From Bacilli bacterium (GTDB taxonomy: Bacteria > Bacillota_I > Bacilli_A > RF39 > UBA660): DNA of 64,000 nt. The DNA lies in the NCBI GenBank assembly GCA_051872635.1, contig JBJEEA010000009.1:7513-71512 (forward strand), in the 5' to 3' direction. This document shows positions 1,152 to 46,910 of this stretch, piece after piece. The notes beneath the pieces are model-generated. The model had not been told where the DNA came from and did no database searches. It saw only the letters and a program-made list of their open reading frames with translations. The position numbers and the translations under genes are program-made. Positions within the stretch are counted from its first letter, which is position 1. Every line of letters starts with the position of its first letter.

Positions 1152-2723
1152 TTATACACTATTATTGTTAAAAGTAACCTTAATATTTATAGTTTTATCT
1201 TCAAATATTTCAATTTTATCAATTAAATTAATTATTAGCTCCCTACTAGGATTTTTCATAGATAAAAATTTATTAATATATTCATTAATGATTTTATTTT
1301 TAAATTCTTCATTTATAGTATCATTAATAGCATTATTTAAATCATTATATCTTTTTTGCTTAATGTTTAGTTCACTTTCTAATTTGACCTTTACTCTTTC
1401 AAATTGTTCTTCAGTTATTTTTTTATTTAATTTATCAATATAAATAATATCTAAATTATCATTTATTTGTCTAATATCATCGGTAAGTATTTTTAACTCT
1501 TTTTTGTTATTGATTTTGTTATCTTCAGTTAAATTATTCAATACATTATTTTTAATTTTATCTTTATTAATATAATTTAAACACATTTCAGTCAAACAAT
1601 TGATTATTACTTTCTCTAATTCATCATAATTATTTGAATGAGTTGTACAAAGTTTTTGTTTTATGTAAGTTCGATAATAGTTACAAATAGTATAGCATCT
1701 ATTATCTTTTTTTCTCCTTGCTTGAACTGATATTCTATGACCACAATCACCACAATACAATAGTCCATCTAGTAAATGATTTTCTTTCTTTTCATTTCTT
1801 CCTACATTTTTAGGTATTCTTTTTTGCACTTCATAAAAAGTTTCTTTATTAATAATAGGTTCATGAGTATTTTCTACAATTATATAATCTTTAGGATTAT
1901 TTCTAACAACTTTTTTAACTTTATAATTTACTTTACTTCTTCTATTTTGTACCATATCGCCTATGTACATTTGATTAGTTAAGATATCCCTTATTGTTTT
2001 TGAATGCCACTGTCCATATTTTAAATTATAATTACTTTTCCATTCAAAACTATAATACCCTGCAGGAGTTTTTATTCCTTCATTAGTTAATTGTTTTGCT
2101 ATTTTATAAAATGATAAACCATCTAAACACATATCAAATATTCTTTTTACAACACTTGCTTGTCCTGCATTTTTTACTAAATGATTTTTGTTATCTGGAT
2201 CTTGCATATATCCAAATGGAGTTCTACCACCAACAAACTTACCTTCTTTTTGTTTAGCTTTTAAACTGGATTTAATCTTTTTAGAAATATCTTTAGCATA
2301 CATATCATTCATAATCGCCTTAAATGGTGCTATATCATTATTTGAACTATCTAAAAATGTATCTATATTATCAGTAACAGCAATATATCTAACATTATGT
2401 TCTGGAAAATATTTTTCTATTAAATTTCCAGTACCAATATAGTCTCTTCCAAGTCTAGACATATCTTTAGTAATTACCATATTAACTCTTCCTAATTCAA
2501 TATCATTTAATAATCTATTGAAATCAGGTCTATCAAAATTAGTTCCACTATATCCATCATCAATATAAATATCATAAACTCTTAAATTATTTTCTTTTAC
2601 ATATTGAAGTAATAAACTTTTTTGATTTGTAATACTTTCGCTCTCATATACTTTATCATCATCTTCACGAGATAATCTTATATAAATACCAACATTATAT
2701 ATCTTATTTATACTCCCTAACAA
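1152..2723 (-). CDS. Large serine recombinase (resolvase/invertase N-domain plus large C-terminal recombinase domain).
   Basis: 523 aa. N-terminal GIYIRLSRED catalytic-serine motif, then a long recombinase/zinc-ribbon region with a C-terminal coiled coil. Layout typical of phiC31/SpoIVCA-type large serine recombinases. Confidence 0.9.
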   Translation of the reverse strand: MLGSINKIYNVGIYIRLSREDDDKVYESESITNQKSLLLQYVKENNLRVYDIYIDDGYSGTNFDRPDFNRLLNDIELGRVNMVITKDMSRLGRDYIGTGNLIEKYFPEHNVRYIAVTDNIDTFLDSSNNDIAPFKAIMNDMYAKDISKKIKSSLKAKQKEGKFVGGRTPFGYMQDPDNKNHLVKNAGQASVVKRIFDMCLDGLSFYKIAKQLTNEGIKTPAGYYSFEWKSNYNLKYGQWHSKTIRDILTNQMYIGDMVQNRRSKVNYKVKKVVRNNPKDYIIVENTHEPIINKETFYEVQKRIPKNVGRNEKKENHLLDGLLYCGDCGHRISVQARRKKDNRCYTICNYYRTYIKQKLCTTHSNNYDELEKVIINCLTEMCLNYINKDKIKNNVLNNLTEDNKINNKKELKILTDDIRQINDNLDIIYIDKLNKKITEEQFERVKVKLESELNIKQKRYNDLNNAINDTINEEFKNKIINEYINKFLSMKNPSRELIINLIDKIEIFEDKTINIKVTFNNNSV

Positions 2724-6843: not shown

Positions 6844-6918
6844 GCAGATGTGGTTCAACGATTAGAATTCGGCCTTGCCAAGGCTGAGACGGGGGTTTGA
6901 CTCCCCTCATCTGCTCCA
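6844..6918 (+). tRNA. tRNA-like gene of 75 nt with a cloverleaf fold. Anticodon loop TTGCCAA gives anticodon GCC (Gly-type), 3' CCA is encoded. The D-loop and T-loop (TTTGACT) are non-canonical. It serves as the prophage attachment target.
   Basis: Acceptor stem GCAGATG/CATCTGC, D-stem GTTC/GAAT, anticodon stem CGGCC/GGCTG, T-stem GGGGG/CCCCT, discriminator T, then CCA. Its last 17 nt are duplicated at the distal prophage end. Confidence 0.5.
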
Positions 6919-13281: not shown

Positions 13282-13485
13282 TTATGTATTACTTTCACTA
13301 TTATTTTCTGATACTTCTGTGTATGTTAAGGTTTTTGCTAATTTAGTATCAATACTATCTAGTTTCGTTTTAATTTCATTAAAATTAGTGATGATTTTAT
13401 CTTGAAATTCGTTCAACCATTCACTAGTAAATGGTGTTGTTGTATCTGGATAATCTTTAAATTCTTTTTTAGTTATTGTTTCCAC
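13282..13485 (-). CDS. Hypothetical phage protein.
   Basis: ORF between the tail spike and collar genes. Confidence 0.35.
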   Translation of the reverse strand: METITKKEFKDYPDTTTPFTSEWLNEFQDKIITNFNEIKTKLDSIDTKLAKTLTYTEVSENNSESNT

Positions 13486-16186
13486 TTATTTTCTCCTCCA
13501 ATTCTTTTATTTTACTTTCTAATTTTTCAATTATAATTTGTTGTTCTTTAATTGCTTGTAAGCATAATGATGTCATTGAATAATTATCGACACCTATTTC
13601 TTTACCATCATCATTTAAAGATGTAATTTCATGTGAATAATTATAATTATCTCCAATGATAAACCCTAAATGCTTTTTTCTTTCGTCCTTTTCTGATTTT
13701 AAATTATACCTATATATATCTGTCTTTTTAACCTCCTCAAGTGCATTTGTAAATTTTTCAAGATTTTTCTTATTGTTTTCCAAAGACGTTTGTGTTAAAG
13801 AACTACAAGAAACATTTCCATTACTATTTAAACTAATTACTTGTTCAATCCCATTTGAACCATCAGAACGAATGTCAAATTGCCCAGTTTTGTCATCTGG
13901 AAATGTTATTTCAAAGAAATTGGCATTATCATATGTTGCTGTTCTTATTTCAAAACCGCCATTATCTCGATTGTCAAAATCAAATTTTTCTGTTACATAT
14001 AATGAATTTAATACACTTCCATTTGTTCCAATTTTAACTAATATATTTCCTTGCTCGTTTTGAATATTTAGAAGTTTATCTATATAATTACTATTTATTT
14101 CAATTGTATATTCCTCGTTTGAATTATCGATTAAATTTTTTATAAGCATATAATCTACGGAACTGACTTTACCATCTTTGTTATAATCATAAAAAGTTTT
14201 TTCTTCATCTGTTAGAGTAGTCTCGCCCAGTATATATTTTCTTATCTTTTCTAAATCTTGCACTGTATATGAGATAACATTTTTCTTGTGTATTCCATAC
14301 AATTTATAATCTTGTATTTTAAATCCACCTATAGTACCACTTTTCGAAAAAATTTCTCCTTCTTTACTGACTGAAAAATTTGGACTTGTTATCTCTATTT
14401 GATCTGATTTTAAATTAAATTTTTTGTTTTTTATGTTTAATTTATCTGAGTCAATTTGAATTAAAGAACCATCTTCATTTTTTTCAGTACTCATGTTTAT
14501 TTGAGCTATAATGTTGTCTTTATCGGTTTTCTTTTCTAACTTTAAATCAATATTTTCTTCATTCATAACGATAGCAGAATTCATCTCTACTTTTGTTGTA
14601 AAAATATCAGTATATTCATTTTTTTTGGCATATTTCATTGTATAATTTAAATTAGGAAAGGACTTCATGTATATTTTGTTGTATCCTTCATTTAACTCAA
14701 TATTAACTAGTGAAAGGTTTTCTTTTGTTTCATCTTTTAAAGTGTATAAAGTTAAGTCATTATTGACTCCTATTCGTCGAATTATATAAGAACCGGTATC
14801 ATCAGTAATAAATTCATCATAAACATTATTTAAAGCATTTAATTTTCTTATGTTTGTTTCAATTTCTCTTTTGTTACCATCATTATCTTCAATAATCAAT
14901 TTAGAACTTTTGAAAAAAGTATTGCTTCCTAAAAAAGTCTTGCTAGAAGGCAAAAGTAATGATAAATCGCCTTTTATTGAGAAATAAATTGAGTTCCCTT
15001 TTACGGCATCTGTTATTTCTAAATAATTATTATTATTGATTGTGCTCGTTACATCTTTTAATACATTTACTTCGCCATTTAATTCGTTAATAGCAAGGCC
15101 AAGTTTTGTTGTTTCCTTTGATGTTTCGCTTGTTTGTTCTATTAAATCTATTATTGTTCCTTCTTGTTTATTAGCAGTTCTTTCTACTTTTAATAACCTA
15201 TTTTCTATACTAGCAGAATAAGAATACTCTGTTGATGTCTCATTAATTTCTTCTGAAGATAATGTAATTTCATAATTATCATCATCTGTAGGATCACCAC
15301 CTAAATAAGTAATTTTTTTACTCATTACATATGCAGTTAAATCATTTCCCCATATATCTTTATAGCTAACTTTTTGCCCTAATTTTATAGATAATTTATT
15401 TTCAACAGATTGTGTCCTCATATTGAATAATAAATAAGAAAAGCCTTTTACTCTGTCGTAAATTGGCTTTATAGTAGTATATCTTATATCATCACCAGAA
15501 ACTTGCGGATCTAATATATAATTATTATCAATTCTAAATTCAATAGGATTTGTTGGTAATGTTTCTGGCCATTTAACATTATCTTCTACATCTCCTCTAC
15601 CTAAAATAACTACATTAATTGAATTACTTAAATCTTTCTCTGTAGTAAGTTCAATCCAATCGTTAATTGTATGACTTGTACTTTCAAACCATTTGAAGTA
15701 AAAGATGTCGTCTTTATCAGTATATACAAAACTGCATCCAGCCTGTGCAATTTGGCTTATAACATTTCTATTACTAGGATTATCACCTACATATGGCTCC
15801 GAGTTTAAAGATAAATCACTATTTGGAAAATCTGAATTATCATATTCTACACCACAATTACTAAATATTGCATTTCGCCATTCTTTTAAAGTCATTGGCC
15901 ATGTATAAAGATTACTATCATATGGAGTATCCAATTTATATTTTATATCATAGCAAGAAAGTTTAATATTTACTTTTTCTTGTACTGGCTCAACATCATG
16001 AATATAAAAAGAACCATGAATTGTTTTAATCCATTGTCCCTTTAAAGAACTATATTCATTACTGTCATTTATCATTTGAATTGTAGCATTACCAAGTTCA
16101 CAAGTTCCAGCAATATTACCATCACTTATAGCTGTTGTTTCATATTCAAAATTCTGAATTACTTTATCATCATAATTTTCTATCAT
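13469..16186 (-). CDS. Tail spike / tail-associated protein (905 aa). Carries a dockerin-like Ca-binding motif and a C-terminal peptidase-S74-type intramolecular chaperone domain.
   Basis: Large protein following the tape measure protein. DYNKDGKVSSVDYMLIKNLI fits a dockerin/EF-hand-like repeat. The C-terminus (...GVDNYSMTSLCLQAIKEQQIIIEKLESKIKELE) resembles the self-cleaving chaperone of phage tail spikes. Confidence 0.65.
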   Translation of the reverse strand: MIENYDDKVIQNFEYETTAISDGNIAGTCELGNATIQMINDSNEYSSLKGQWIKTIHGSFYIHDVEPVQEKVNIKLSCYDIKYKLDTPYDSNLYTWPMTLKEWRNAIFSNCGVEYDNSDFPNSDLSLNSEPYVGDNPSNRNVISQIAQAGCSFVYTDKDDIFYFKWFESTSHTINDWIELTTEKDLSNSINVVILGRGDVEDNVKWPETLPTNPIEFRIDNNYILDPQVSGDDIRYTTIKPIYDRVKGFSYLLFNMRTQSVENKLSIKLGQKVSYKDIWGNDLTAYVMSKKITYLGGDPTDDDNYEITLSSEEINETSTEYSYSASIENRLLKVERTANKQEGTIIDLIEQTSETSKETTKLGLAINELNGEVNVLKDVTSTINNNNYLEITDAVKGNSIYFSIKGDLSLLLPSSKTFLGSNTFFKSSKLIIEDNDGNKREIETNIRKLNALNNVYDEFITDDTGSYIIRRIGVNNDLTLYTLKDETKENLSLVNIELNEGYNKIYMKSFPNLNYTMKYAKKNEYTDIFTTKVEMNSAIVMNEENIDLKLEKKTDKDNIIAQINMSTEKNEDGSLIQIDSDKLNIKNKKFNLKSDQIEITSPNFSVSKEGEIFSKSGTIGGFKIQDYKLYGIHKKNVISYTVQDLEKIRKYILGETTLTDEEKTFYDYNKDGKVSSVDYMLIKNLIDNSNEEYTIEINSNYIDKLLNIQNEQGNILVKIGTNGSVLNSLYVTEKFDFDNRDNGGFEIRTATYDNANFFEITFPDDKTGQFDIRSDGSNGIEQVISLNSNGNVSCSSLTQTSLENNKKNLEKFTNALEEVKKTDIYRYNLKSEKDERKKHLGFIIGDNYNYSHEITSLNDDGKEIGVDNYSMTSLCLQAIKEQQIIIEKLESKIKELEEKISGNNN

Positions 16187-22305: not shown

Positions 22306-23163
22306 TTAAGCAACTGGTTTATAAGAAACATAAACTCCGGCAAGTTTATTTTCATAAACATGTCCATATAAGTTGTAATTTCTATATGGGAATACATGAG
22401 AATCACCATTTTGATCTTCATCTGGACTAAAGTATTTGATGAATTGATCCATAGCAGTTACTGCTGCACTTCTTTCAACAATCATAAAGTTAATATCAGC
22501 AGCACCCTCTGCCTTCTTGTAACCATAGTTTTCTTCACCTGTATTTAAAGTAATTGCAGTATACATTCTTGTTTGTGGTACCTCAATAACTTGACTAAAT
22601 CTAGACATAACTGATTTTGATTTATATGTCTCTAAATCATCAATCAAGGCTTTTCCAGTTGGTGTAATAAATAAGATTCTGTTTTCAGTTGATACTTCAT
22701 CTTCATCTTGTTTATTAGTTCCTGCTCTTAATGCCTTATACATTTCATCACCAGTAGTAATAGTTTCTTCTTTCTTAGAAACACCTTCCACACTAGCTAT
22801 TTTAGCAATTCTAGCTGCATCAGTTTCTGGAGCAACTTTAGTTCTTAAAAACTCACTAGACAATTTAGCAACAGCAATTCCTAGACTTTCATCATTATCT
22901 AATCTGTCTATTTTTAATTTTTGAGAACGCTCCTTATCATATTTGATAGTTTCCCAAGTTAATTTAGATGTTCCTTCTGTATATCCAGAATTTCTATCAA
23001 AATCTCCTAAACCATCCATATCTAATTTAGCAACTTTTATTTCACCATTTTGGCCTTTTTTAATTGTTGCTTGATCTCCATCTAATACAGATGTTTTTAC
23101 TTCATTTTTGTATACTTCATCAAGTAATGGTAAGTATACTGTACTTAATTCAATATTATTCAT
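22306..23163 (-). CDS. Major capsid protein.
   Basis: 285 aa. Lies immediately downstream of the scaffold gene. Confidence 0.6.
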   Translation of the reverse strand: MNNIELSTVYLPLLDEVYKNEVKTSVLDGDQATIKKGQNGEIKVAKLDMDGLGDFDRNSGYTEGTSKLTWETIKYDKERSQKLKIDRLDNDESLGIAVAKLSSEFLRTKVAPETDAARIAKIASVEGVSKKEETITTGDEMYKALRAGTNKQDEDEVSTENRILFITPTGKALIDDLETYKSKSVMSRFSQVIEVPQTRMYTAITLNTGEENYGYKKAEGAADINFMIVERSAAVTAMDQFIKYFSPDEDQNGDSHVFPYRNYNLYGHVYENKLAGVYVSYKPVA

Positions 23164-23183: not shown

Positions 23184-23747
23184 TTATTTTTCTTTATTGG
23201 CTAAGCCCATAACTTGTCTAAGTTCATCGTTGGTCTTAGTATTTGTTGGTGCTGTTGGTAGTGTTGTAAATTTTGGATTTGCTACATCACTTAAAAAAGA
23301 ACCTTTATCAGATTCCTTTAAATTATTTAACCATTCTGTTGCACCTTGAAATGACTTACTTTCTTCATCATATTTAAAGTCTTTCTTATTAAACTCTGCT
23401 ATAACTCCATTTTTGGCCATTTCACTTGAGAACTTAGTATCTTTAAAGAATTCATTTACTCTTTCATTTCTGATACTTTGTTCTTTTTCTGCCTTTTGAT
23501 TTGCTACTAACTCATTATATTTAGTCTCCCAATCACTAGCAGATTTTTTAATGCTATCAATATCCATATCTTTGTATGATTGAATTTCCTTGTTCGCATT
23601 ATCAATTTGTGTTTTTAATGTTTCCACCTCATTTTTTGAATTTGTTAGGTCTGTGTTTAATTTTGAAATAGCAGTGCCATGTTCTTTCATGATAGCCTCT
23701 ACTTTTTCACTTTCCAATCCTAATCCTTCTAAAAATTCTCTTTTCAT
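23184..23747 (-). CDS. Scaffolding protein.
   Basis: Highly charged coiled-coil protein between the minor head protein and capsid genes. Confidence 0.6.
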   Translation of the reverse strand: MKREFLEGLGLESEKVEAIMKEHGTAISKLNTDLTNSKNEVETLKTQIDNANKEIQSYKDMDIDSIKKSASDWETKYNELVANQKAEKEQSIRNERVNEFFKDTKFSSEMAKNGVIAEFNKKDFKYDEESKSFQGATEWLNNLKESDKGSFLSDVANPKFTTLPTAPTNTKTNDELRQVMGLANKEK

Positions 23748-23964: not shown

Positions 23965-24120
23965 ACTAATCTTCATATTGTATGGGGTTTTCTTTTAAAT
24001 ATTCATCAATTTCCTTAGTTACTTGTTTTTGAAATTCTTCATCAATTTCTATTGGTTCATCAATGAACTCTTCTAATTCTCTATCATCAAACATCATTTC
24101 ATTTTCTTTCAATTCTTCCA
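23965..24120 (-). CDS. Possible small acidic protein of 51 aa.
   Basis: MEELKENEMMFDDRELEEFIDEPIEIDEEFQKQVTKEIDEYLKENPIQYED. Overlaps the 3' end of the minor head gene. Below the ORF-track size cut-off. Confidence 0.25.
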
Positions 24121-25718
24121 TAATTCCAACCAACTCTCTTACTAATTTCTTTATTAATCATATGAAGTGTTTCTTGCTTCTTTCCATACTTTTGAATATA
24201 TTTATTTCTTGTTATTTCATTGATTTTTTTTAAATCTTTGGACTTTACTTTATTTATACCATTTTTTTCTAAATAATACAAGTATTTATCAGTTTTTACT
24301 ATGATTGAGTTAATAGACTTATATTTATTGAATGTATCAATATCAGTAAATGAAAAACTTGAATTACTTGGATGATTATGAACCAACAATAAACTATTAT
24401 CTTTTGATTTAATTGACAACATAATAGGCTTAATGCCACCAACACTACTTTTTTTATTTTGATGAACTTCTAATAGTTTTTCTTTGGTATCTATATTATA
24501 TATAAATAAATGTTCTACTTCGTTATTCAAGTTTTTGAAATCTTTATCAATTATATTATCATTAAACATTTCAAAATTACTTTCATTACGAACTAAATCT
24601 TTCTCAATGTATTCTCTAGTATAATCTCTTTGAAGATTATTCTCTTCTAAAAATCTATTATAATTTTTGTTAAACATTTTTGTTTCAATACTTATCCTTT
24701 TTAATTCATCAGCATCATTTAATATTTTAGAAACTTCTCTTTGTCTTTTTAGACTACGAAGTTTTCTTTCATATTTCCTTTGTTCTTGAGATAATATATA
24801 GGTCTTTTCATTCTCTTCTTGGTCTACTCTTTCTGGGTGCTTTTCCCACTCAAAAGTAGGATAAAAAGTGTGCCTACAATTAACACCACAAAGCCCTAGC
24901 ATTTTACCATAGCCAGTTTTTTCATAAAAATTCTCATATTTATCACTTGAACCATTTAGCATATAAACTTTCCCTTGCCAATCAGCATGGACTTCAAAAT
25001 CTTCTTTAGTATATGGTGTTCGTATTCTGGCACCAAAATGTTGGGTAACATAAACTAAATTAGTTCCTAGTTGTTTAGCCTTTTCTATTTGTATATCTCC
25101 TGTTAGTTGATGAACTTTAGTAAGCACATCTCTTCTTACTGTGGATTCTAAGGATAATCTTTTACCATTTTTATATGTGGCACCAATAAATCCTTCTTTA
25201 GCCATCTTCTTTAAGCCTTGTTTTATAGCTTGGTCATATGAATAAACTCCACTAGATACCTTTATATATGCATCAGTTAATATTTTCATATAGCTTTCTT
25301 TCGCACTTTCTATCGCTTTTGTCTGTATTGTTTCCATCAAAGAGTTTGTTTCTTTTATGGAATTTTCTATAATATTCTGAACTGCTAAACTTTCATACAT
25401 TTGAGTTGGATTACTCAGCAATTGTTCATCATCAATGTAATCTTTATATTTGTCTAGCTTAGAAACATCATATCCTGCCAATTTTAGTATTCTTTTTACT
25501 TCGTTTTGAGATTTTCCAGCATACTTTGCTAATAATGCTAGATTTTCTTTATTAAATCCGCCTATTTCTTGTAACTTATCTAAATACCATTTCAATGAGC
25601 CTTCAATACCAGTATAGGTATTTAATCTAATTGCTATGTCTTTAATTAATTCTAATTCTAAATTATCATATATTTTTATTAAAGGTTTTATTAATACTTC
25701 AAGTTTGGCATCATCCAT
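24099..25718 (-). CDS. Minor head (head-morphogenesis) protein of the SPP1 gp7 / Mu F family, fused to a C-terminal RadC/JAB-like metallo-domain.
   Basis: The N-terminal ~300 aa carry the LGLCGVNCRHTFYP motif of the Mu F / gp7 family. The C-terminal ~200 aa contain LLLVHNHPSNSSFSFTD, which reads as a JAMM-like HxH-x6-S-xx-D motif close to RadC HNHPSGxxxPSxxD. Confidence 0.6.
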   Translation of the reverse strand: MDDAKLEVLIKPLIKIYDNLELELIKDIAIRLNTYTGIEGSLKWYLDKLQEIGGFNKENLALLAKYAGKSQNEVKRILKLAGYDVSKLDKYKDYIDDEQLLSNPTQMYESLAVQNIIENSIKETNSLMETIQTKAIESAKESYMKILTDAYIKVSSGVYSYDQAIKQGLKKMAKEGFIGATYKNGKRLSLESTVRRDVLTKVHQLTGDIQIEKAKQLGTNLVYVTQHFGARIRTPYTKEDFEVHADWQGKVYMLNGSSDKYENFYEKTGYGKMLGLCGVNCRHTFYPTFEWEKHPERVDQEENEKTYILSQEQRKYERKLRSLKRQREVSKILNDADELKRISIETKMFNKNYNRFLEENNLQRDYTREYIEKDLVRNESNFEMFNDNIIDKDFKNLNNEVEHLFIYNIDTKEKLLEVHQNKKSSVGGIKPIMLSIKSKDNSLLLVHNHPSNSSFSFTDIDTFNKYKSINSIIVKTDKYLYYLEKNGINKVKSKDLKKINEITRNKYIQKYGKKQETLHMINKEISKRVGWNYGRIERK

Positions 25719-25722
25719 TTAA

Positions 25723-27141
25723 CTACTCCTCTATAGGCTCATTATCTGTTTGCTGTTGATATTTTGTTTTTCTTCTCTGAATATTGTCATAGAAAGCAGT
25801 AGCTTCTTCTTCAGAATAATCTCTTGTTTCCATTATATATTGAATATCATCAATAATATCTGCATTTCTTTCCGTTAAGGATTGTCTTTGTAAAGATTCT
25901 TTATCAACAAGAATACTATCATCCCAATCAAATGTGACTTTGTAATTATTGCTTACTGGTATTTCATATAATTTACATAGTACATAAATACCGTAAATTA
26001 AGTCTTCAAATGCTTGTTGAAGTGATGTTTGAATATCACTTACGGTAACATAATAATCTTGCTTGCCTGTCTTTATTTCAGTAGCAGTCTTTTCTATCAA
26101 TTCCGGTTTACATAGTGTTCCCACTGCTAGTCCACATTGCAATTCTACCTGTCTTAACAATTCATTTAAACCATTAAATAAAGCAGTATCTCTTATCTCT
26201 GGACTAAATATATTCCACTTATTTTTATCATCATCACTTGCTATTAATTTACGATATAATCTTTGTTTCCCTTTTGGATAAATTGGATTGCCTTTTTTAT
26301 CTAAAGGCAACATTGTTTCATCTATATCAACAGCTAATTCAGAGCCTTCATATTCCCAAAGAGTTCTTGAAAACTGTTTGTCTATCTCTTTTAGTGTATC
26401 AATTGCATTATGAAACAACGAAACACCCAAAGGACTATTATTATCGACATTGTTAGTATTGTTCATAGTGAAGAACCCACCAATTAACCTATCAACACCT
26501 TCAATAGCTAAATTTTCATCTATTTCTTTCCATTTATTAACACTATGCAAGTCTATCTTATTTGCTAAAATAACACCATTTTTCTTTCCTTTATATGCTA
26601 TATTTTTAATAGTTAATATATTTTCATTTAATTCATCATATTCTAGCCTAGTGTAAATATCATTTCCATCAGTTATTTGATCTATAAATATAGCTCCTAA
26701 TAAATCTCCACTATCATCGAATTTAACAGGTATAAATTTATCTGCTTGTATAGTAGTTATATTTATTTTATTATTCTCATAGGATGGCTTAAAAAATATG
26801 CAACTTTTGCCAATTGCATATTCAGTATTTTTTCTTTTATTTTTTAAGAACTTCTGATAAACATTATTTATATATTCATCATCGCATTCACTTTTAAACT
26901 CTATTGTAACTGCTTTAGCAACTTTTTCACACATTGTCTTTGCTACATGGAGAGATATTGTATCTTTATCTATCCATGGTTCATTACCATTAAATATTCT
27001 GCTCCAATTTTGAATTGCATCTAGCATTTCTTTTGAAGTTTCTGTATCTAATCCAAAATCAGAAATTATTTTATTATAATCAAACATATTTTTCCACCAA
27101 CCTTTTATTTTATTTATAATTTTATCAAACACTACAATCAC
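25723..27141 (-). CDS. Portal protein.
   Basis: 472 aa, located between TerL and the minor head protein. Typical SPP1-like order. Confidence 0.75.
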   Translation of the reverse strand: MIVVFDKIINKIKGWWKNMFDYNKIISDFGLDTETSKEMLDAIQNWSRIFNGNEPWIDKDTISLHVAKTMCEKVAKAVTIEFKSECDDEYINNVYQKFLKNKRKNTEYAIGKSCIFFKPSYENNKINITTIQADKFIPVKFDDSGDLLGAIFIDQITDGNDIYTRLEYDELNENILTIKNIAYKGKKNGVILANKIDLHSVNKWKEIDENLAIEGVDRLIGGFFTMNNTNNVDNNSPLGVSLFHNAIDTLKEIDKQFSRTLWEYEGSELAVDIDETMLPLDKKGNPIYPKGKQRLYRKLIASDDDKNKWNIFSPEIRDTALFNGLNELLRQVELQCGLAVGTLCKPELIEKTATEIKTGKQDYYVTVSDIQTSLQQAFEDLIYGIYVLCKLYEIPVSNNYKVTFDWDDSILVDKESLQRQSLTERNADIIDDIQYIMETRDYSEEEATAFYDNIQRRKTKYQQQTDNEPIEE

Positions 27142-27142
27142 C

Positions 27143-28492
27143 TCATTTCTCTTCCAAATCTATAAATGGTAGTAATTGTTTAATATATTTCCAAACACCC
27201 ATTATTGCATATCTTTCAGCATCACAGCAGTGATCATATTCTTTTATGGGTTCCTCTCTACCTTTATCTAATAAATCCTCATTCCATTTATATTGATATC
27301 TTTCTTCGATTAGATGTTTTTGTTTAGGACTTAAAAATAATCTTTTAAATGACATCATCTTCTGCACTCTGTTTATTCCTAGCAAAACTGTGTTATTAGC
27401 ATTAAGTATTGATACTTCGGGACATATTCTTTTTATTTCTTCTGATAAACCTTTTGCAGAAGGATCTATAAAAACAAACTTTATTTGCTTGCTTGTTTCT
27501 TCTTCTATTCTATTTTTAAATATCTTAAAATCATTAGCATATTCTGATGGGCTTTTTTGCCTTCCACTTTCTCTACCGCTATGATAATATTCATCTATTC
27601 CTTGAACACATTTATTTATATAATCCAAACTAAAGCATTGAAAAGTAGTAGCATTCATCTGCCCATAGTCTACACCAATAAATAGCCAAGGAATACCTTT
27701 TAATATTTCTTCAGTTACCTCTCTTATATGTTTTTCTTTATCAAACATATAATAAATAACTTCATCTATTCCAGTACAAAGTCCTAACCAAATCCAGTTA
27801 TACATTTTTTCATCTAATTTTTTCAATAGTTCAGCTGTTTGAATCAGTTTTTTACCTAACCAATTAATTGGAACATCCCTATAATCTGTATGTATTCTTA
27901 TGCAATCTGGTCTTTGTACCATCTTTTCTACCCACTGCATTATAGGTGCTTTTGGATTCTGTGGCGGATTAAAATAATATTCCATACAGAATTCATCATC
28001 ATTTCCACGAACAAATGTTGCTTCTATATTGGTTAATTCATCTTCTCCATCACCTTTATCAAAAAATTCAGTTAATTCATCTAACTCTACTAACTTAATT
28101 GGTTTATTTTCATCAATCATACCTTTAGTATCATCTATACTATCATTACCAGTAAAATAGATAGTGTTGCCATTCTTTAAATACTTAATTTCCATTGGAC
28201 TAACAGTTATTTTAAAGTCTTTTTTATTAAGGCCTAATCTTGTAATAGCTCTTAAGCATTCTTTATATACAGTCTTCTTTAACTTATTATGAAACTTTCT
28301 CATAATAACAACAGAACAATTATCATCTTCTACTATCTTTTCAACAGCCTTTATTGCTCCTCTGCTAGATTTAGTTCCTGCTCTTCCAGAAGTAAATATT
28401 TTATGCATATACTTTGTATCATTAAAAGTAGAATGATATTTAGAAATTATCAAATCGCTTAATTTAATAATTTTTCTATTTTGGTAGATCAT
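27143..28492 (-). CDS. Terminase large subunit.
   Basis: N-terminal FTSGRAGTKSS Walker-A-like ATPase motif and a C-terminal nuclease-like acidic residue pattern. Lies adjacent to the small subunit. Confidence 0.8.
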   Translation of the reverse strand: MIYQNRKIIKLSDLIISKYHSTFNDTKYMHKIFTSGRAGTKSSRGAIKAVEKIVEDDNCSVVIMRKFHNKLKKTVYKECLRAITRLGLNKKDFKITVSPMEIKYLKNGNTIYFTGNDSIDDTKGMIDENKPIKLVELDELTEFFDKGDGEDELTNIEATFVRGNDDEFCMEYYFNPPQNPKAPIMQWVEKMVQRPDCIRIHTDYRDVPINWLGKKLIQTAELLKKLDEKMYNWIWLGLCTGIDEVIYYMFDKEKHIREVTEEILKGIPWLFIGVDYGQMNATTFQCFSLDYINKCVQGIDEYYHSGRESGRQKSPSEYANDFKIFKNRIEEETSKQIKFVFIDPSAKGLSEEIKRICPEVSILNANNTVLLGINRVQKMMSFKRLFLSPKQKHLIEERYQYKWNEDLLDKGREEPIKEYDHCCDAERYAIMGVWKYIKQLLPFIDLEEK

Positions 28493-28928
28493 TTACTATC
28501 ACTACCTTATCATCACTACCATTATCAGTTTTCTCTATTTTTTCTCGCCACTTATCAGGTTGTCTATTTTTTAGCCAAAATATTTGAGCAGTAGTGTCTG
28601 GAATAATTTGTTTAGTAACTTCTTTAGTAATCATCAATTCGTAATTACCTGTTTTAGGATTAACTCTCATTTCTTTAGTTACTTCTGTATACTCATATCC
28701 ATTTGCTCTTTTATATAATGAATTTTCCACATTAAAATCGGCAATATCTTTACTCTCTTTTAAGGCTGCCGAAAGTGCCAGGTTTTTGTCTCTCCACACT
28801 CTAAAAGTAGAATAAGCAATTTTCATATTTTCTGCTATTTCTTTATCAGTCAAGCCTGCTCTGGCCCATCCCTTAATTAAATTAAGTCCATCATCAGTTA
28901 ACCAATACTCTACTTTTTTACTAGCCAT
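28476..28928 (-). CDS. Terminase small subunit.
   Basis: 150 aa. N-terminal HTH-like segment (GLTDKEIAENMKIAYSTFRVWR). Lies immediately upstream of the large subunit. Confidence 0.7.
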   Translation of the reverse strand: MASKKVEYWLTDDGLNLIKGWARAGLTDKEIAENMKIAYSTFRVWRDKNLALSAALKESKDIADFNVENSLYKRANGYEYTEVTKEMRVNPKTGNYELMITKEVTKQIIPDTTAQIFWLKNRQPDKWREKIEKTDNGSDDKVVIVNDLPK

Positions 28929-42491: not shown

Positions 42492-43625
42492 ATGCCAGTT
42501 TATAAGACAAAAACTGAAAAAACAAAAGATAATAAAATATGGTATTTTAAATGCAATTATAAAGATGTTTATGGAAACATAAAGCAAAAGAAAAGTAAAA
42601 AATATGCAACAAGAGACGAAGCGCTGAAAGAAGAAGCAAAATTTAAACTAAAACAAGATGAAGTTTCAGTTTTAAATACTACTATGTATGATTTATATAA
42701 TGCCTATTTCTTTTTAGACGACAGTATAATAAATAGAGAGTCAACATTATATACTAAAGAATATAGAGTTAGAAAATATATACTACCATTCTTTATAAAT
42801 AATAAAAATGGTAAGTACTCTGATTTATCCACAGTTAATGTTGATAAAATTAAAAAATGGAAAATATGGCTAAATGAAAAAAAATTGTCATTACAAACAA
42901 AGAAATCATTATTTAATACTTTCTCTTCTTTAATGAGTTATGCCGTAGAAAAGTATAGTTTAGAATATAATCCTTTAAAACTTGTTGAAAATTTTAGAGA
43001 AAAGAACGATAAGGTAGTTGAAGAAGAAAAAGTCAGATTTATGACTAATGAAGAATATAGAATATTTATTGATGAAGTAGATGATGATTTTAAAGTAGTG
43101 TTTCACTTCTTATATGAAATTGGATGCCGTAAAGGTGAAATGACATCTTTAAAATGGAAAAATGTTGATTTAAAAAACGAAAGAGTAAAATTAAATACAA
43201 CATTTTCTCGCAAAAGAGATGGTAGCCTTACTATTGCAAATACAAAAAATGGCAAAAACAAATATGTTGATATGTCTCCAAAGTTAGTTGAAGAACTAAC
43301 CGAATTATACAACAAGATGAAAAAACTGGATGGTTTCTCTGATGAATGGTTTGTGTTTGGTGGGATAAAATATCTTTCCTACACTACTCTAGGAAGAAAA
43401 AAAGATGAAGCATTTGAAAGATTAAAAGAAAAAGGTATAAATATAACTAATATAACAATACATGAATTTAGGCATAGTTCTGCTAGTTATATGATTAGTA
43501 ATAATATACCAATAGAAGTAATAGCATACAGATTAGGAGATACACCTGAAACTATCAGAAGAACTTATGCTCACCTATTTCCTGATGCTCAAAAAGATGT
43601 AAAAGGATTATTTAATAATTTATAA
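42492..43625 (+). CDS. int: Tyrosine integrase (phage integrase family).
   Basis: C-terminal catalytic motifs: R in GCRKGE, HEFRHSSASYM (H-x-x-R), ETIRRTYAHL (Y). Confidence 0.9.
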   Translation: MPVYKTKTEKTKDNKIWYFKCNYKDVYGNIKQKKSKKYATRDEALKEEAKFKLKQDEVSVLNTTMYDLYNAYFFLDDSIINRESTLYTKEYRVRKYILPFFINNKNGKYSDLSTVNVDKIKKWKIWLNEKKLSLQTKKSLFNTFSSLMSYAVEKYSLEYNPLKLVENFREKNDKVVEEEKVRFMTNEEYRIFIDEVDDDFKVVFHFLYEIGCRKGEMTSLKWKNVDLKNERVKLNTTFSRKRDGSLTIANTKNGKNKYVDMSPKLVEELTELYNKMKKLDGFSDEWFVFGGIKYLSYTTLGRKKDEAFERLKEKGINITNITIHEFRHSSASYMISNNIPIEVIAYRLGDTPETIRRTYAHLFPDAQKDVKGLFNNL

Positions 43626-43937: not shown

Positions 43938-46910
43938 TTAAAAACAAATCAAAGATTTTGTGATGTCGTATGCTTCGTAAAGCATTATAAATGCTGGATT
44001 TACTATGGTGTCATCAAAGTGTTTTTTTAATGTTTTCCCAATTTTTAATGTGACTGAATTTATTTCACTATTGACCCTTTCATCTTGTGAATTGTTAAAT
44101 GCTTCTTTATCTCCATTTTTATAACTTATAACATACCAGTCATCATTACAATAAACTTCTTTTAAATCCCCAACATCTATTGCTTTATATAATGCTAATG
44201 TGTTTTCTTTTTCTGATTTTATATATCTTAACGCATTAACTTTTTTGTTAATAAGTTTTATATAATCTTCATCATAAGAATCAGCTGCTAAATAATACAT
44301 AATCTCTTTTCTATCATCTTGGTAATTAAAATAGCATTGACCTAAATTAAATGTACCATTTCCTCTAATTAAATATTGGACATTTTTAGAATCAGAATAT
44401 TCTACCGCCTCAATCGGTTGTGGTAAAATGTCAACAAATTTTCTATTACTTCCTAATTTACTTCCAAAATCTTTATCTTTAAGATTACAAATTTTTGCAA
44501 TTAAACAAGGATATTTTTCTATACCTTTTATTTCTTTATCAAAATTAGTAAACCCAATTGTTACATTTTTAATGCAACTTTCTATTCCTTCAAATTCAAA
44601 TGAAATTCTTATTAATTCATCAATAGCTTGTAAATATACATCAAAGAAATCAACACAATCTATACTTTTTGAAATTTCAATATTATCAAAGCACAGTAAA
44701 TCTCCATTTCTCCAAACCCAACTATGTGCTAAAATATCATTATCTTTTTTTATAACAAATATTCTCCCATTAAAACTAGTTACAGCATGTTTTAAACATG
44801 AATATCCATTACCTAACACAGTAAAACAGCAATCAGTCTTATTACCAACACATAAAGCTTCCATATCATCTAATCTTAATATCTCATAAGAATATTTATC
44901 TTTTATTCCTGCAATTCTTGGTATTGTAGAAGATATTCTGTTCAAAATCTGATCATGTAATACTAAAGTTTCATTCACAATACTATTATCACAACCAATA
45001 AATTTAAATATTCCCTCTAAACGATAATATTTAGGTGGTAGTGTTATTTCATCACTTTTTAAAAATTCTATTATTGTCTTTAATGATTTATCCTTATTAT
45101 TCATCTCAATCATTTTCCATTCACTAAATATTCTAGGAAAATATTTATATAAATCACTATCTTTATTAGATAACATCCCTTTAATTCTAGAATAATTTTT
45201 ATCATTAAATAATAAATTAATTATCTTAGTATTTAGTATTGGACTTCCTTGTTCATCTAACATTACATTTTTAACATCAACATTACCTACTAAATGTTCT
45301 AATACAGGTAATGTATCATCAATTTCTAATAAAACTCTAGCGTTATTAAATCCAACCATTAACATTAATTTTAAAATTAACTGTTTATAACTTCTAATAG
45401 ACCATTTACCTTCTTCAAACTTTTTACATAACTGTTTATGTTGTTTAACATTATAATTTTCTAATTGTTCTACAGTAAAATCTTCTACTTTAAAGTCTAT
45501 ACTTCCTAATCTATTTAAGATTGTTATTTCTTCAATACTAGATAACTCATATAAAACAGTAATTGACTTACCCATAACAATTTTATAAAATAATTTTTCT
45601 ATTTCTTTAAAATTATTATTCTCAATATTGTTAACAATATTTTGATTTCTTAAGAACAATATAAAATTTGATAAGTGTTGTTTATAATTTTCATCACTTT
45701 TTGAAATAATATTACTTTTTAACATTTCTCTAAGTTCACTTAAATTCTTAAAATATTTTTCTGAAAAAACAGAAGTCATTTCATCAATTTCCTCTAATAT
45801 ACCATTAGTTTTAATATTACTTCTATATTTTGTTTCAACATATCTCAATGCTGATATAGATTCTTTATGCCAATAAGAAATATAAAAGTTTGTGTCAAAA
45901 AGCAATTCAATATTATCAATTTCAAAAGTATCCAATATTTCTTTAAATTTATCATTAAATACTCCAGATCTAGAACATGCTTTGATCCAATCATTTAAAG
46001 TTAATGAATTAAACACTTCTTTATCATCACTATATAAATTAATAATAATCTTTGGTCTGATACTATTATTAATTTTCTTGATATCATGGCCTTGTATTAT
46101 ATTTTCAAAAAAATTAGATATTAAAATCTCTTGCTTCGTTTCATCAGTTTCGTTCAAATACTCTTTTAAATCATATTCAGAAATATTACTAAATGCAGTA
46201 TTTAATTTATCATAATGATTACTTACAAATTGTCTATATACATCTACATTTTCAATATACCTTATAAATGTTAATAGTTCTCCTGGTTTAAATTCATTAA
46301 TTTTATCTATATATTTTTCTAATAAAAAATCCATAAATTCTTCATTATAAATTATTTGTAATTCAAAGATGTTATTTATATCATGCATATTAGCATTATC
46401 ATAACAACAGCTATTATGAAAATATAATCCATTGATAAATTCTCTATTTTCTACTTGAACTAATTCAGTATAAAATTCGGTATAAAAAGAATAATACTCT
46501 TCATGTGTAAATCCATGAAATAAATTCTCAGGATTTTGACTTATAACTTTTTTAAATATATCAGTATCAATATTTTTTAATTCTTTTAACACATTAAAAG
46601 AAAGAAAATAGGATAAAGATCTAGGGGCTATCATTGTGTATAAAAATATATCATTGTCATGTTCTTTAATGTATTTTATATTATCCTTCATAAATGTTAT
46701 TTGCTTATCTTCTGGTAATTTGCTAATAATATAATAAATAGAAAGAGGATTCATATCATTAATATTTTTATTACCAGTTTTAATATATTCATCACACTCT
46801 TTAAGCGCTTTTTCTTCATTTTGTTTACTTGCATTTAATGAAAGTGGTATAGATTTTTTCCCAAGTCCTTCTAACAACACTTGAATTTGTTCATCAGTTA
46901 ATTCTGGCAT
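43938..46910 (-). CDS. Large hypothetical protein (990 aa), operon partner of the ankyrin-AAA+ protein.
   Basis: Long uninterrupted ORF with a GGGGGA RBS. Cys-containing segments (SCCYDNANMHD, CVGNKTDCCFTVLGNGYSCLKH). No domain recognised. Confidence 0.8.
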   Translation of the reverse strand: MPELTDEQIQVLLEGLGKKSIPLSLNASKQNEEKALKECDEYIKTGNKNINDMNPLSIYYIISKLPEDKQITFMKDNIKYIKEHDNDIFLYTMIAPRSLSYFLSFNVLKELKNIDTDIFKKVISQNPENLFHGFTHEEYYSFYTEFYTELVQVENREFINGLYFHNSCCYDNANMHDINNIFELQIIYNEEFMDFLLEKYIDKINEFKPGELLTFIRYIENVDVYRQFVSNHYDKLNTAFSNISEYDLKEYLNETDETKQEILISNFFENIIQGHDIKKINNSIRPKIIINLYSDDKEVFNSLTLNDWIKACSRSGVFNDKFKEILDTFEIDNIELLFDTNFYISYWHKESISALRYVETKYRSNIKTNGILEEIDEMTSVFSEKYFKNLSELREMLKSNIISKSDENYKQHLSNFILFLRNQNIVNNIENNNFKEIEKLFYKIVMGKSITVLYELSSIEEITILNRLGSIDFKVEDFTVEQLENYNVKQHKQLCKKFEEGKWSIRSYKQLILKLMLMVGFNNARVLLEIDDTLPVLEHLVGNVDVKNVMLDEQGSPILNTKIINLLFNDKNYSRIKGMLSNKDSDLYKYFPRIFSEWKMIEMNNKDKSLKTIIEFLKSDEITLPPKYYRLEGIFKFIGCDNSIVNETLVLHDQILNRISSTIPRIAGIKDKYSYEILRLDDMEALCVGNKTDCCFTVLGNGYSCLKHAVTSFNGRIFVIKKDNDILAHSWVWRNGDLLCFDNIEISKSIDCVDFFDVYLQAIDELIRISFEFEGIESCIKNVTIGFTNFDKEIKGIEKYPCLIAKICNLKDKDFGSKLGSNRKFVDILPQPIEAVEYSDSKNVQYLIRGNGTFNLGQCYFNYQDDRKEIMYYLAADSYDEDYIKLINKKVNALRYIKSEKENTLALYKAIDVGDLKEVYCNDDWYVISYKNGDKEAFNNSQDERVNSEINSVTLKIGKTLKKHFDDTIVNPAFIMLYEAYDITKSLICF

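What the first reader, a model, noticed from the sequence alone, without database searches (positions are those of the whole stretch)
24099..24700. Minor head (gp7 / Mu F-like) protein carries an extra C-terminal RadC/JAB-like metallo-domain
Residues about 340-539 of the 539-aa head morphogenesis protein are not part of the gp7 fold. They contain LLLVHNHPSNSSFSFTD, which reads as a JAMM/RadC-type HxH...S..D metal site. gp7/MuF proteins are packaged and often carry polymorphic, toxin-like C-terminal cargo that is injected with the DNA. A JAB-type peptidase or deubiquitinase-like domain delivered this way could be an anti-defense effector, for example against ubiquitin-like or ISG15-like defense conjugation.
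Basis: partly seen in the sequence, partly recalled or inferred. Interest (0 to 1): 0.55.

Follow-up and report, generated by a model that had tools for sequence, protein, structure and literature searches.

The report
Phage head protein carrying RadC-like toxin cargo
A prophage head protein of the MuF family carries a previously unnamed RadC-type metal-enzyme domain at its C-terminus, followed by a tiny acidic partner gene, which is the layout of phage-borne "polymorphic toxin plus immunity" modules and not of a ubiquitin-removing anti-defence enzyme.

Summary
ORF 24099-25718(-) encodes 539 aa. Residues 1-372 are a MuF-superfamily head domain (Pfam Phage_min_cap2, E 2.5e-81). Residues 385-539 are a compact domain with HNHPSNSSFSFTD (447-459) and an upstream Glu (E402).

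A profile search found 250 cluster representatives. E, H, H, S and D are essentially invariant in them (for example H 169/169, E 143/143). The domain falls below Pfam's RadC cut-off (16.6-19.3 vs 22.1 bits). Profile-profile comparison with true RadC proteins gives 97.8% probability with all catalytic residues aligned. So it is a distinct, unannotated RadC-like JAB subfamily with a loop one residue shorter.

The deubiquitinase / anti-Ubl reading is not supported:
- There is no similarity to the JAB proteins of defence systems.
- The domain sits after a conserved junction (LQRDYTREY). Cargo-less MuF2 proteins end there, and other phages and orphan cassettes carry Gln-amidase, CdiA_C or other domains there.
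- 42 of 45 family genes are followed at once by a small ORF, against 29 of 187 control genes. Here that ORF is a 51-aa protein of net charge -16 that overlaps the gene end by 23 nt.

Best reading: a MuF polymorphic toxin or effector with a RadC-like hydrolase cargo and a cognate inhibitor. This is a new member of a known kind. Its substrate is unknown.

The parts
24099..25718 (-). Complete gene for the 539-aa MuF2-JAB fusion protein. It is identical to NCBI MGM9881578.1, named only 'phage minor capsid protein'.
24603..25718 (-). N-terminal MuF-superfamily head domain (residues 1-372), Pfam PF06152 Phage_min_cap2 / 'MuF2'. It includes the GVNCRH motif.
   Evidence: Pfam E 2.5e-81 over residues 1-358. 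PHROG 581 'minor head protein'. Alignment with cargo-less MuF2 proteins.
24603..24632 (-). Conserved junction LQRDYTREYI (residues 363-372). Cargo-less MuF2 proteins end just after it. Behind it the C-terminal cargo differs between phages and orphan cassettes. It is a likely recombination handle.
24567..24602 (-). Short spacer (residues 373-384) between the junction and the folded cargo domain.
24102..24566 (-). RadC-like JAB domain (residues 385-539). The core is beta1-beta2-alpha-beta3-alpha-beta4-beta5. A family-specific extension follows: two long helices and a final strand carrying the nearly invariant GWxY.
   Evidence: AF2 pLDDT 95.9. hhalign to RadC 97.8%. The family profile reaches RadC at E 3.5e-6. 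RadC Pfam hit is below the cut-off.
24513..24515 (-). E402, the predicted catalytic Glu at the start of beta1.
   Evidence: Invariant. Aligned to the RadC Glu.
24342..24380 (-). Metal-site motif H447-N-H449-P-S-N-S-S-F-S456-F-T-D459.
   Evidence: H 169/169, H 168/169, S 168/169, D 169/169. Coordinates.
23966..24121 (-). Partner ORF: 51 aa, 21 D+E and 5 K+R (net charge -16). Its ATG lies 23 nt inside the 3' end of the JAB gene in another frame. It is the candidate cognate inhibitor or immunity protein.
25723..27141 (-). Portal protein gene, immediately upstream. This is the defining genomic context of muf genes.
   Evidence: PHROG 533, E 1.4e-106
23184..23747 (-). Head scaffolding protein gene, the next gene downstream. 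The major head protein gene is at 22306-23163.

Best explanation
The gene encodes a MuF-family polymorphic toxin or effector of a temperate prophage.

Shown here:
- The N-terminal 372 residues are the MuF2 head domain, encoded directly after the portal gene.
- After a conserved junction (LQRDYTREY) comes a swappable cargo. In this phage the cargo is a 155-residue RadC-like JAB domain with an intact, invariant E...HNHP...S..D centre.
- A 51-aa strongly acidic ORF overlaps the end of the gene by 23 nt. It accompanies this domain in fused, orphan-cassette and chromosomal contexts.

Inferred:
- As with SPP1 gp7, the MuF domain places a few copies of the protein inside the capsid next to the portal and DNA. 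The cargo then enters the next host cell with the DNA.
- The cargo is a zinc-dependent hydrolase that harms or reprograms the cell.
- The acidic partner is made by translational coupling. It binds and blocks the enzyme in the producing cell, probably by covering a basic substrate-binding face.
- From its RadC-clade membership, its basic charge and its acidic inhibitor, the most likely substrate is a nucleic acid or nucleotide-linked molecule, not a ubiquitin-like conjugate.
For: MuF2 domain and context:
- Pfam PF06152 at E 2.5e-81.
- Gene order TerS-TerL-portal-MuF-(small ORF)-scaffold-major capsid.
- Integrated prophage bounded by tRNA-Gly and a tyrosine integrase.

RadC-like JAB identity:
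- Pfam RadC hits at E about 1e-3, below the cut-off.
- PDB RadC homolog 2qlc is the only meaningful hit, at E 0.0011 with the family profile.
- The family profile reaches PF04002+PF20582 RadC proteins at E 3.5e-6 to 9e-4 among 5.8 billion sequences.
- hhalign gives 97.8%, E 8.5e-13, with E, HNHP, S and D in register.
- The catalytic residues are invariant across about 170 domains.
- In the high-confidence model (pLDDT 95.9) the Glu lies at the start of beta1, the two His at the end of beta3, and Ser/Asp at the N-terminus of the next helix. This matches the RadC-like domain described in PMC11981726.

Polymorphic cargo:
- A500 gp4, Deep-Purple gp13 and phiCD38-2 gp04 end just after the junction.
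- Javan210_0029 carries a different domain there.
- The Gln_amidase and CdiA_C cassettes of L052 share the junction and then diverge.
- P0002 and P0017 are orphan JAB cassettes that carry the junction motif RRDYTREY. P0005, the standalone copy in L001, starts the same way in the alignment but carries a variant of it (LDYTREY).
- The same cargo is also fused to the other MuF family, PF04233: 13 of 65 members and Dorea phage DO134P1.

Partner ORF:
- 42/45 JAB genes (30/33 unique) are followed at once by a 40-110-aa ORF, against 29/187 control genes.
- Homologous acidic partners with the shared motif phi-x-DD-x-x-phi-x-x-L occur in phage, orphan, chromosomal and CRISPR-locus copies.
- Two of the three cargo-less MuF2 control phages have no such ORF, and the third has an unrelated one.

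Precedent:
- A MuF toxin (Apk2) and its immunity proteins have been validated experimentally (PMC12226406).
Against: - There is no experimental evidence of toxicity, metal binding, packaging or injection for this family. Virion delivery of any MuF toxin cargo is still an inference in the literature.
- Foldseek against the PDB gave no significant hit. MPN/JAMM proteins appeared only at E >= 0.4 and TM about 0.3, and the RadC structure 2qlc was not among the 50 matches listed. The fold assignment therefore rests on sequence profiles and motif placement.
- The RadC hit is below Pfam's gathering score.
- The anti-correlation between the charge of the domain and that of its partner is not significant (rho -0.35, p 0.18).
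- In one large clade the downstream ORF is a 104-aa basic protein unrelated to the acidic partners. The partner is therefore not one single family, and some of these small ORFs could be head-module genes.
- The partner lies in the late head operon. Whether a lysogen would be immune is unknown.
Confidence: 0.65

Rival explanations
1. The cargo is an injected JAB isopeptidase or deubiquitinase-like anti-defence effector. It strips ubiquitin-like conjugates (Bil/ISG15-like, or CBASS Cap2-type) from phage or host proteins early in infection.
For: - The complete JAMM-type E...HxH...S..D set is invariant.
- All biochemically characterised JAB domains are peptidases acting at Ubl C-termini (PMC3239186).
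- Weak structural matches include a giant-virus 'deubiquitination hydrolase' and Rpn8/Rpn11.
- A MuF anchor is a plausible route for an early-acting protein (PMC5512222).
- Standalone copies lie inside CRISPR-Cas loci, so there is a link with conflict systems.
Against: - The domain is closest to RadC (97.8% hhalign). Only 2/65 members give faint Prok-JAB hits.
- No PADLOC defence-system model matches.
- RadC-type and toxin-type JAB domains are reported to lack the Ubl-tail groove.
- A cognate small partner ORF, and orphan cassettes interleaved with Gln_amidase and CdiA_C toxins, are the hallmark of toxin/immunity modules. Classical injected anti-defence proteins do not have them.
- No Ubl, E1 or E2 gene was seen next to any copy examined.
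Confidence: 0.1
2. The domain serves the virion itself. It could be a head-maturation or self-processing metalloprotease, or an enzyme or binder that handles the packaged DNA end during packaging or ejection. The small acidic protein would be an assembly cofactor.
For: - The gene sits in the head module between portal and scaffold, and no separate prohead protease gene was recognised there.
- SPP1 gp7 binds DNA and the portal and affects infection efficiency (cited in PMC5576092 and PMC12226406).
- RadC proteins carry DNA-binding HhH domains (PMC3239186).
- The cargo domain is basic (net +10).
Against: - Most MuF2 phages, such as A500, Deep-Purple and phiCD38-2, lack the domain, so it is accessory.
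- The same position carries unrelated toxin domains in other phages.
- The domain and its partner also occur far from any head genes: L001 beside LigD and SecG, L050 among glycosidases, L009 and L014 inside cas operons.
Confidence: 0.12
3. The extension is a catalytically dead structural or binding module, and its resemblance to the metal site is only historical.
For: - Inactive RadC-type JAB domains exist in some fusobacteria (PMC3239186).
- The loop between the second His and the Ser is one residue shorter than in canonical JAMM/RadC.
Against: All five catalytic positions are essentially invariant across about 170 domains that are otherwise only 21-35% identical. That is the signature of selection on catalysis.
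Confidence: 0.03

Closest known systems
MuF polymorphic toxins of temperate phages (Jamet et al. 2017, PMC5576092; Apk2 (p)ppApp-synthetase toxin, PMC12226406)
   Same: - N-terminal MuF-superfamily domain (here MuF2/PF06152).
- Gene directly after the portal gene.
- Temperate prophage.
- Variable C-terminal enzymatic domain behind a conserved junction.
- Small downstream ORF of under 150 aa.
- Orphan cassettes.
   Different: - The cargo is a RadC-like JAB domain. No RadC, PF04002 or JAB-domain entry turned up in that paper's text or in its held supplementary tables, one of which was truncated when stored.
[quoted passage not shown]
- The partner is an unusually short (46-59 aa), highly acidic protein with no family assignment.
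- Toxicity is untested.
RadC / YicR family JAB domain (Pfam PF04002; PDB 2QLC)
   Same: - Homologous core, with hhalign 97.8%.
- Identical HNHP signature.
- Conserved Glu, Ser and Asp in register.
- Biochemical function unknown in both.
   Different: - Scores are below Pfam's gathering cut-off.
- The loop is one residue shorter (HNHPxxxxFSxxD against HNHPSGxxxPSxxD).
- There is no N-terminal HhH/UPF0758 domain.
- A family-specific C-terminal extension of about 65 residues ends in GWxY.
- It is fused to a phage head domain and paired with a small partner ORF.
Tox-JAB-1 (PF15659) and Tox-JAB-2 (DUF4329) toxin domains of RHS-type and other polymorphic toxins (Zhang et al. 2012, PMC3482391)
   Same: - JAB-fold domains used as C-terminal toxin modules with dedicated immunity proteins.
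- Divergent from the Ubl-processing JAB domains, and predicted to act on nucleic acids.
- Tox-JAB-2 relatives occur in giant viruses, and such giant-virus proteins are among the weak structural matches here.
   Different: - Only 2/65 members give faint PF15659 hits.
- The trafficking domain differs: MuF instead of RHS, T6SS or T7SS.
- The immunity partners differ: Imm65 and Imm-NTF2 there, a short acidic protein here.
JAMM/MPN+ isopeptidases (Rpn11, AMSH, BRCC36; bacterial Cap3-type and Bil-type JAB proteins)
   Same: The same E...HxH...S..D zinc-site logic and the same deaminase-like fold class.
   Different: - No significant sequence or structure match.
- The signature is HNHP, as in RadC.
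- No associated Ubl, E1 or E2 genes were seen.
- The immunity-like partner is not a feature of these enzymes.

Membership tests
JAB/JAMM (MPN+) metalloenzyme superfamily | Conserved Glu followed by HxH, then Ser and Asp (E...HxHx7Sx2D) | tested here: met
   E402, H447, H449, S456 and D459 are invariant in the family. The spacing is x6, not x7.
JAB/JAMM (MPN+) metalloenzyme superfamily | Deaminase-like alpha/beta fold, with Glu at the start of beta1, the His pair at the end of the central strand, and Ser/Asp on the following helix | tested here: inconclusive
JAB/JAMM (MPN+) metalloenzyme superfamily | Bound zinc and metal-dependent hydrolysis | not testable with these tools
   Needs protein biochemistry.
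RadC-like JAB domain (Pfam PF04002) | Score at or above Pfam's gathering threshold (22.1 bits) | tested here: not met
   16.6, 18.4 and 19.3 bits, depending on the fragment. Only 12/65 relatives hit at all at E < 0.01 (best 5.4e-4), and the window's own domain stays below the threshold.
RadC-like JAB domain (Pfam PF04002) | Homology to bona fide RadC proteins with the catalytic residues in register | tested here: met
   hhalign 97.8%, E 8.5e-13. The family profile hits PF04002+PF20582 proteins at E 3.5e-6. 2qlc hits at E 0.0011.
RadC-like JAB domain (Pfam PF04002) | Canonical signature HNHPSGxxxPSxxD and the N-terminal HhH/UPF0758 module | tested here: not met
   The loop is one residue shorter and the consensus is FS, not PS. 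The N-terminus is MuF2 instead.
MuF polymorphic toxins | N-terminal MuF-superfamily domain, encoded immediately downstream of the portal gene | tested here: met
   PF06152 at E 2.5e-81. Portal gene at 25723-27141. PF06152 is 'MuF2' (PMC5576092).
MuF polymorphic toxins | C-terminal domain that varies between otherwise homologous proteins | tested here: met
   The junction alignment shows cargo-less, JAB, Gln_amidase, CdiA_C and Javan210 variants.
MuF polymorphic toxins | Small ORF (<150 aa) immediately downstream, the candidate immunity gene | tested here: met
   A 51-aa ORF at 23966-24121 overlaps the gene end. 42/45 against 29/187 controls.
MuF polymorphic toxins | Encoded by a temperate phage or prophage | tested here: met
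   Tyrosine integrase at 42492-43625, tRNA-Gly at 6844-6918, host ffh gene alongside.
MuF polymorphic toxins | Toxicity of the C-terminal domain and its neutralisation by the downstream protein | not testable with these tools
   Needs expression assays like those used for Apk2 (PMC12226406).
Ubl-deconjugating JAB enzymes of defence or anti-defence | Detectable similarity to Cap3-type, Bil-type or Prok-JAB peptidases | tested here: not met
   No PADLOC hit at E <= 1. PF14464 in 2/65 members at E >= 0.005.
Ubl-deconjugating JAB enzymes of defence or anti-defence | Substrate groove for an extended Ubl C-terminal tail, and cleavage of Ubl conjugates | not testable with these tools
The literature states that RadC-type and toxin-type JAB domains lack the groove.

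The most novel reading that the evidence does not exclude
This two-gene unit may be a self-contained toxin-antitoxin-like module: a RadC-like JAB hydrolase plus a short acidic DD-motif protein. Its enzyme would attack nucleic acid or a nucleotide-derived molecule. Phages load it into capsids through MuF, and bacteria keep standalone copies, including inside type I CRISPR-Cas operons of Bacteroidota, where it might act as an addiction or guard module. If so, it would give the first tractable readout (toxicity plus a specific inhibitor) for the long-unresolved biochemical activity of RadC-type JAB domains.
Probability: 0.25. Interest if true: 0.7.

Novelty: new member of a known kind. Interest (0 to 1): 0.45.

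Why it matters
MuF polymorphic toxins are an established but little-studied class, and only one cargo type ((p)ppApp synthetase) has been characterised biochemically. This finding adds a widespread cargo family: at least 250 clusters at 50% identity, mostly in gut Firmicutes phages, including the cultured Dorea phage DO134P1. Databases label these proteins only 'minor capsid protein' or 'hypothetical'. The domain is a relative of RadC, whose function has been disputed since the 1980s and was still unknown in 2025. A toxic version with a dedicated inhibitor would make the question of RadC's substrate directly testable. It also corrects an attractive but unsupported assignment as an anti-ubiquitin-like effector.

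Tried and rejected
- Foldseek of the high-confidence model against the PDB found no significant match, and the RadC structure was not among the 50 matches listed.
- The search for related loci with the deep alignment A3 failed because it had no sufficiently conserved stretch. The shallow alignment A2 was used instead.
- PHROG scans of six downstream small ORFs (five acidic or DD-motif partners and the start of the basic 104-aa ORF) found no family.
- PADLOC scans of the domain and of standalone members found nothing.
- Charge complementarity between domain and partner showed a trend only (rho -0.35, p 0.18) and is not used as evidence.
- A strict junction regex matched only 6 of 66 long family members. 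The junction motif is therefore specific to the MuF2 sub-clade. The broader claim rests on the alignment.
- Literature searches for RadC/JAB with phage anti-defence, for MuF with anti-defence, and for phage-encoded JAB deconjugases found no report of this fusion.
- I considered and rejected the idea that the small ORF is a generic head-module gene. It also follows orphan and chromosomal copies that lie away from head genes. It is absent from A500 and Deep-Purple, and the downstream ORF in phiCD38-2 is unrelated.
Full report
**1. What is in the sequence**

It lies in a standard siphovirus head module:
- small terminase, 28476-28928
- large terminase, 27143-28492
- portal, 25723-27141
- this gene
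- scaffold, 23184-23747
- major head protein, 22306-23163

The module belongs to an integrated prophage. The host ffh gene and a tRNA-Gly (6844-6918) lie on one side. Endolysin, tail, head and replication genes follow, and a tyrosine integrase lies at 42492-43625. The G+C content is about 27%. The identical protein is in NCBI as MGM9881578.1, 'MAG: phage minor capsid protein [Bacilli bacterium]'. A Clostridia MAG contig (L004) is 99% identical over the C-terminal 180 residues, and the 90% cluster also holds a 539-aa Clostridia protein on a contig of the same length.

**2. Domain anatomy**

Residues 1-358 match Pfam PF06152 Phage_min_cap2 end to end (E 2.5e-81). Jamet et al. place this family in the MuF superfamily as 'MuF2' (PMC5576092).

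An alignment with MuF2 proteins that lack any extension shows that they end within a few residues of a conserved junction. In the window protein this junction is LQRDYTREYI, residues 363-372. The proteins compared were Listeria phage A500 gp4, Bacillus phage Deep-Purple gp13 and C. difficile phage phiCD38-2 gp04.

A first AlphaFold model built from 7 sequences was mediocre (pLDDT 67.6) and disordered up to about residue 394. A second model of residues 385-539, built from 65 sequences, was excellent (pLDDT 95.9, pTM 0.89). It is a compact domain: a short N-terminal helix, then beta-beta-alpha-beta-alpha-beta-beta, two long helices and a final strand.

**3. Is it a RadC/JAB domain?**

Direct scans give only sub-threshold RadC hits:
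- Pfam PF04002 scores 16.6-19.3 bits against a cut-off of 22.1.
- NCBIfam RadC models give E about 0.003-0.03.
- The RadC homolog 2qlc gives E 0.05.

The family evidence is much stronger:
- A profile of the domain found 250 cluster representatives at E <= 1e-3 among 1.84 billion.
- The signature HNHPxxxxFSxxD occurs in 146 of the 155 proteins held.
- In a 65-sequence alignment reaching down to about 21% identity, E402, H447, H449, P450, S456, D459 and Y533 are invariant.
- Over all collected domains the counts are H 169/169, H 168/169, S 168/169, D 169/169 and E 143/143.
- The family profile hits 2qlc at E 0.0011 as its only meaningful PDB match.
- It reaches true RadC proteins (PF04002 + PF20582, COG2003/K03630) at E 3.5e-6 to 9e-4 in a database of 5.8 billion sequences.
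- A profile-profile comparison with five such RadC proteins gives 97.8% probability (E 8.5e-13). The Glu, HNHP, Ser and Asp are in register, with a one-residue deletion in the loop.
- In the model the Glu opens beta1, the two His close beta3, and Ser/Asp start the next helix. This is the arrangement described for RadC-like domains (PMC11981726).

Structural searches were less helpful:
- Foldseek against the PDB found nothing significant. MPN proteins appeared only at E >= 0.4.
- Against viral predicted structures, the model matched many 520-630-aa 'minor capsid proteins' of gut phages at TM 0.6-0.76. It matched giant-virus JAB-like proteins, a 'deubiquitination hydrolase' and a dCMP deaminase only weakly.

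My conclusion is that this is a distinct, currently unannotated subfamily of the RadC-like JAB clade, with an intact catalytic set and a family-specific C-terminal extension. In the annotated collection, no close family member carries a Pfam call on this domain.

**4. Evidence that it is polymorphic cargo**

Of 65 relatives, 32 carry PF06152 and 13 carry the other MuF family, PF04233, in front of the same domain. The cultured Dorea phage DO134P1 is a PF04233-type example. Its gp13 contains PMHPNCRCS and HNHPSGGSFSFTD and is annotated as hypothetical.

Behind the same MuF2 junction, other elements carry other domains:
- Streptococcus phage Javan210_0029 has an unrelated C-terminal region.
- Metagenomic locus L052/L053 holds two ORFs that start with the junction segment (...GLRRDYAREY...) and continue into a Gln_amidase and a CdiA_C toxin domain. 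They lie beside a SocA_Panacea gene and a short JAB-family gene.
- The 'standalone' proteins P0002 and P0017 also begin with the junction segment (HLRRDYTREY, NLRRDYTREY). P0005 begins the same way in the alignment but carries a variant of the motif (LDYTREY).

This is the organisation of polymorphic toxin systems: a constant trafficking domain, a conserved junction, swappable C-terminal toxins and orphan cassettes (PMC3482391, PMC5576092).

**5. The partner ORF**

The ATG of a 51-aa ORF lies 23 nt before the stop codon of the gene, in another frame (23966-24121). It follows a purine-rich stretch, and no terminator separates the two genes. The product is MEELKENEMMFDDRELEEFIDEPIEIDEEFQKQVTKEIDEYLKENPIQYED, with 21 acidic and 5 basic residues.

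Clear homologs overlap the 3' end of the JAB gene in every close relative (L004-L007, L015-L019). The same holds for L001, where the JAB cassette stands alone among non-phage genes.

More distant copies have partners that share a short motif (phi-x-D-D-x-x-phi-x-x-L) and, in the Bacteroidota copies, a K-x-NP C-terminal motif. These copies are:
- Dorea phage DO134P1
- a Lachnospiraceae MAG
- a chromosomal pair in a metagenomic contig (L050)
- two Bacteroidota genomes

Across all fetched loci, 42/45 JAB-family genes (30/33 unique) are followed at once by a 40-110-aa ORF. The figure for other genes of 200 aa or more is 29/187 (Fisher p about 2e-23; the loci are not fully independent).

Cargo-less controls differ. 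A500 and Deep-Purple have no such ORF, and the downstream ORF of phiCD38-2 is unrelated and not acidic. Jamet et al. found the same rule for MuF toxins in general (89.4%). A MuF toxin with protein-type immunity has been validated experimentally (Apk2/IapK).

Two caveats apply. One large clade has a different, basic 104-aa downstream ORF. The charge complementarity between domain and partner is only a trend.

**6. Mechanism**

Shown: the architecture, the intact catalytic set, the polymorphism at the junction and the linkage to the partner.

Inferred from SPP1 gp7 and the MuF literature: the MuF domain brings a few copies of the protein into the capsid, close to the portal and the DNA, and the cargo enters the next cell with the DNA.

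Inferred from the partner ORF and the company of bona fide toxin cassettes: the enzyme is harmful, and its translationally coupled acidic partner keeps it inactive in the producing cell.

Inferred from RadC-clade membership, the basic charge of the domain (net +10) and the acidic partner: the substrate is more likely a nucleic acid or nucleotide-linked molecule than a Ubl conjugate. This last step is the weakest, because no RadC-type domain has a demonstrated activity.

**7.

An injected deubiquitinase-like anti-defence enzyme is not excluded, but it has no specific support:
- The domain is not close to the Ubl-processing JAB families.
- RadC-type and toxin-type JAB domains are reported to lack the Ubl-tail groove.
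- The immunity-like partner and the cassette arrays fit a toxin module better.

A purely morphogenetic role is unlikely, because most MuF2 phages lack the domain and because the pair also occurs away from head genes. A dead domain is very unlikely, given the invariance of the catalytic residues.

**8. Novelty**

MuF polymorphic toxins, JAB-fold toxins (Tox-JAB-1 and Tox-JAB-2) and RadC domains in phage or plasmid 'polyvalent proteins' have all been described (PMC5576092, PMC3482391, PMC5512222). I found no report of this MuF-RadC-like fusion or of its partner, and databases call the protein only a minor capsid protein. It is therefore a new member (a new cargo and immunity family) of a known kind. 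Its value is moderate: it is widespread in gut phages, one cultured phage carries it, and it may offer an experimental route to the unknown activity of RadC.

Noticed in passing
L009 3872-4595 (Fulvivirga MAG) and L014 3809-4493 (Emticicia agri): Standalone members of this JAB family, each with its small partner ORF, sit inside type I CRISPR-Cas loci on the opposite strand, between Cas3 (HD + helicase) and Cas6. L014 also has a WYL-HTH regulator in the locus and an ArdC-N/zincin anti-restriction gene nearby. The pair could be an addiction or guard module, a cas accessory or an insertion.
   Followed up: partly
L052 3564-7499 and L053 (metagenome scaffolds): An array of orphan toxin cassettes: a short JAB-family gene with a 69-aa ORF; a MuF2-junction + Gln_amidase ORF with a 76-aa ORF; a MuF2-junction + CdiA_C ORF; and a SocA_Panacea antitoxin-type gene. 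It looks like a reservoir for swapping MuF cargo.
   Followed up: partly
window 13469-16186 (-): The 905-aa tail-fibre-like protein of the prophage carries a type I dockerin domain (E 8e-9) as well as a Peptidase_S74 intramolecular-chaperone domain. A dockerin on a phage tail protein suggests binding to cohesin-bearing (cellulosome-type) structures on the host surface.
   Followed up: no
P0051 (800 aa), P0069 (898 aa), P0086, P0122: Some family members contain two or three tandem copies of the JAB-like domain, each with its own HNHP...S..D motif.
   Followed up: no
L012 3578-4516 (Candidatus Saccharibacteria MAG): A 312-aa family member has an N-terminal hydrophobic, signal-peptide-like segment (MRKRIVAIICAALFALSGF) in place of a MuF domain. 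This hints at a secreted version of the same enzyme.
   Followed up: no
L023-L025 2548-4360 (IMG/VR contigs): Two ORFs in the same locus, separated by a 206-aa ORF, both start with MGGRG (a 208-aa ORF and the 186-aa JAB protein). This may be a shared N-terminal leader or processing signal for packaged effectors in that phage group.
   Followed up: no
L013, L021, L026, L030, L031, L033-L038, L040, L042: In one clade of MuF-JAB genes the downstream ORF is a conserved basic protein of about 104 aa (MxKxKKDKNKNPYLKPDGS...CRKDDKPGWKYG...) instead of an acidic one. It starts at the stop codon of the JAB gene (ATGA overlap) and is split into two ORFs in some loci. Its function is unknown, and PHROG gave no match.
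   Followed up: partly
window 43938-46910 (-) and 1152-2723 (-): A 990-aa ORF next to the prophage integrase has no Pfam match at E <= 1e-4. A large serine recombinase (Resolvase + Recombinase + Zn ribbon) lies near the other end of the window, so a second mobile element may adjoin the prophage.
   Followed up: no
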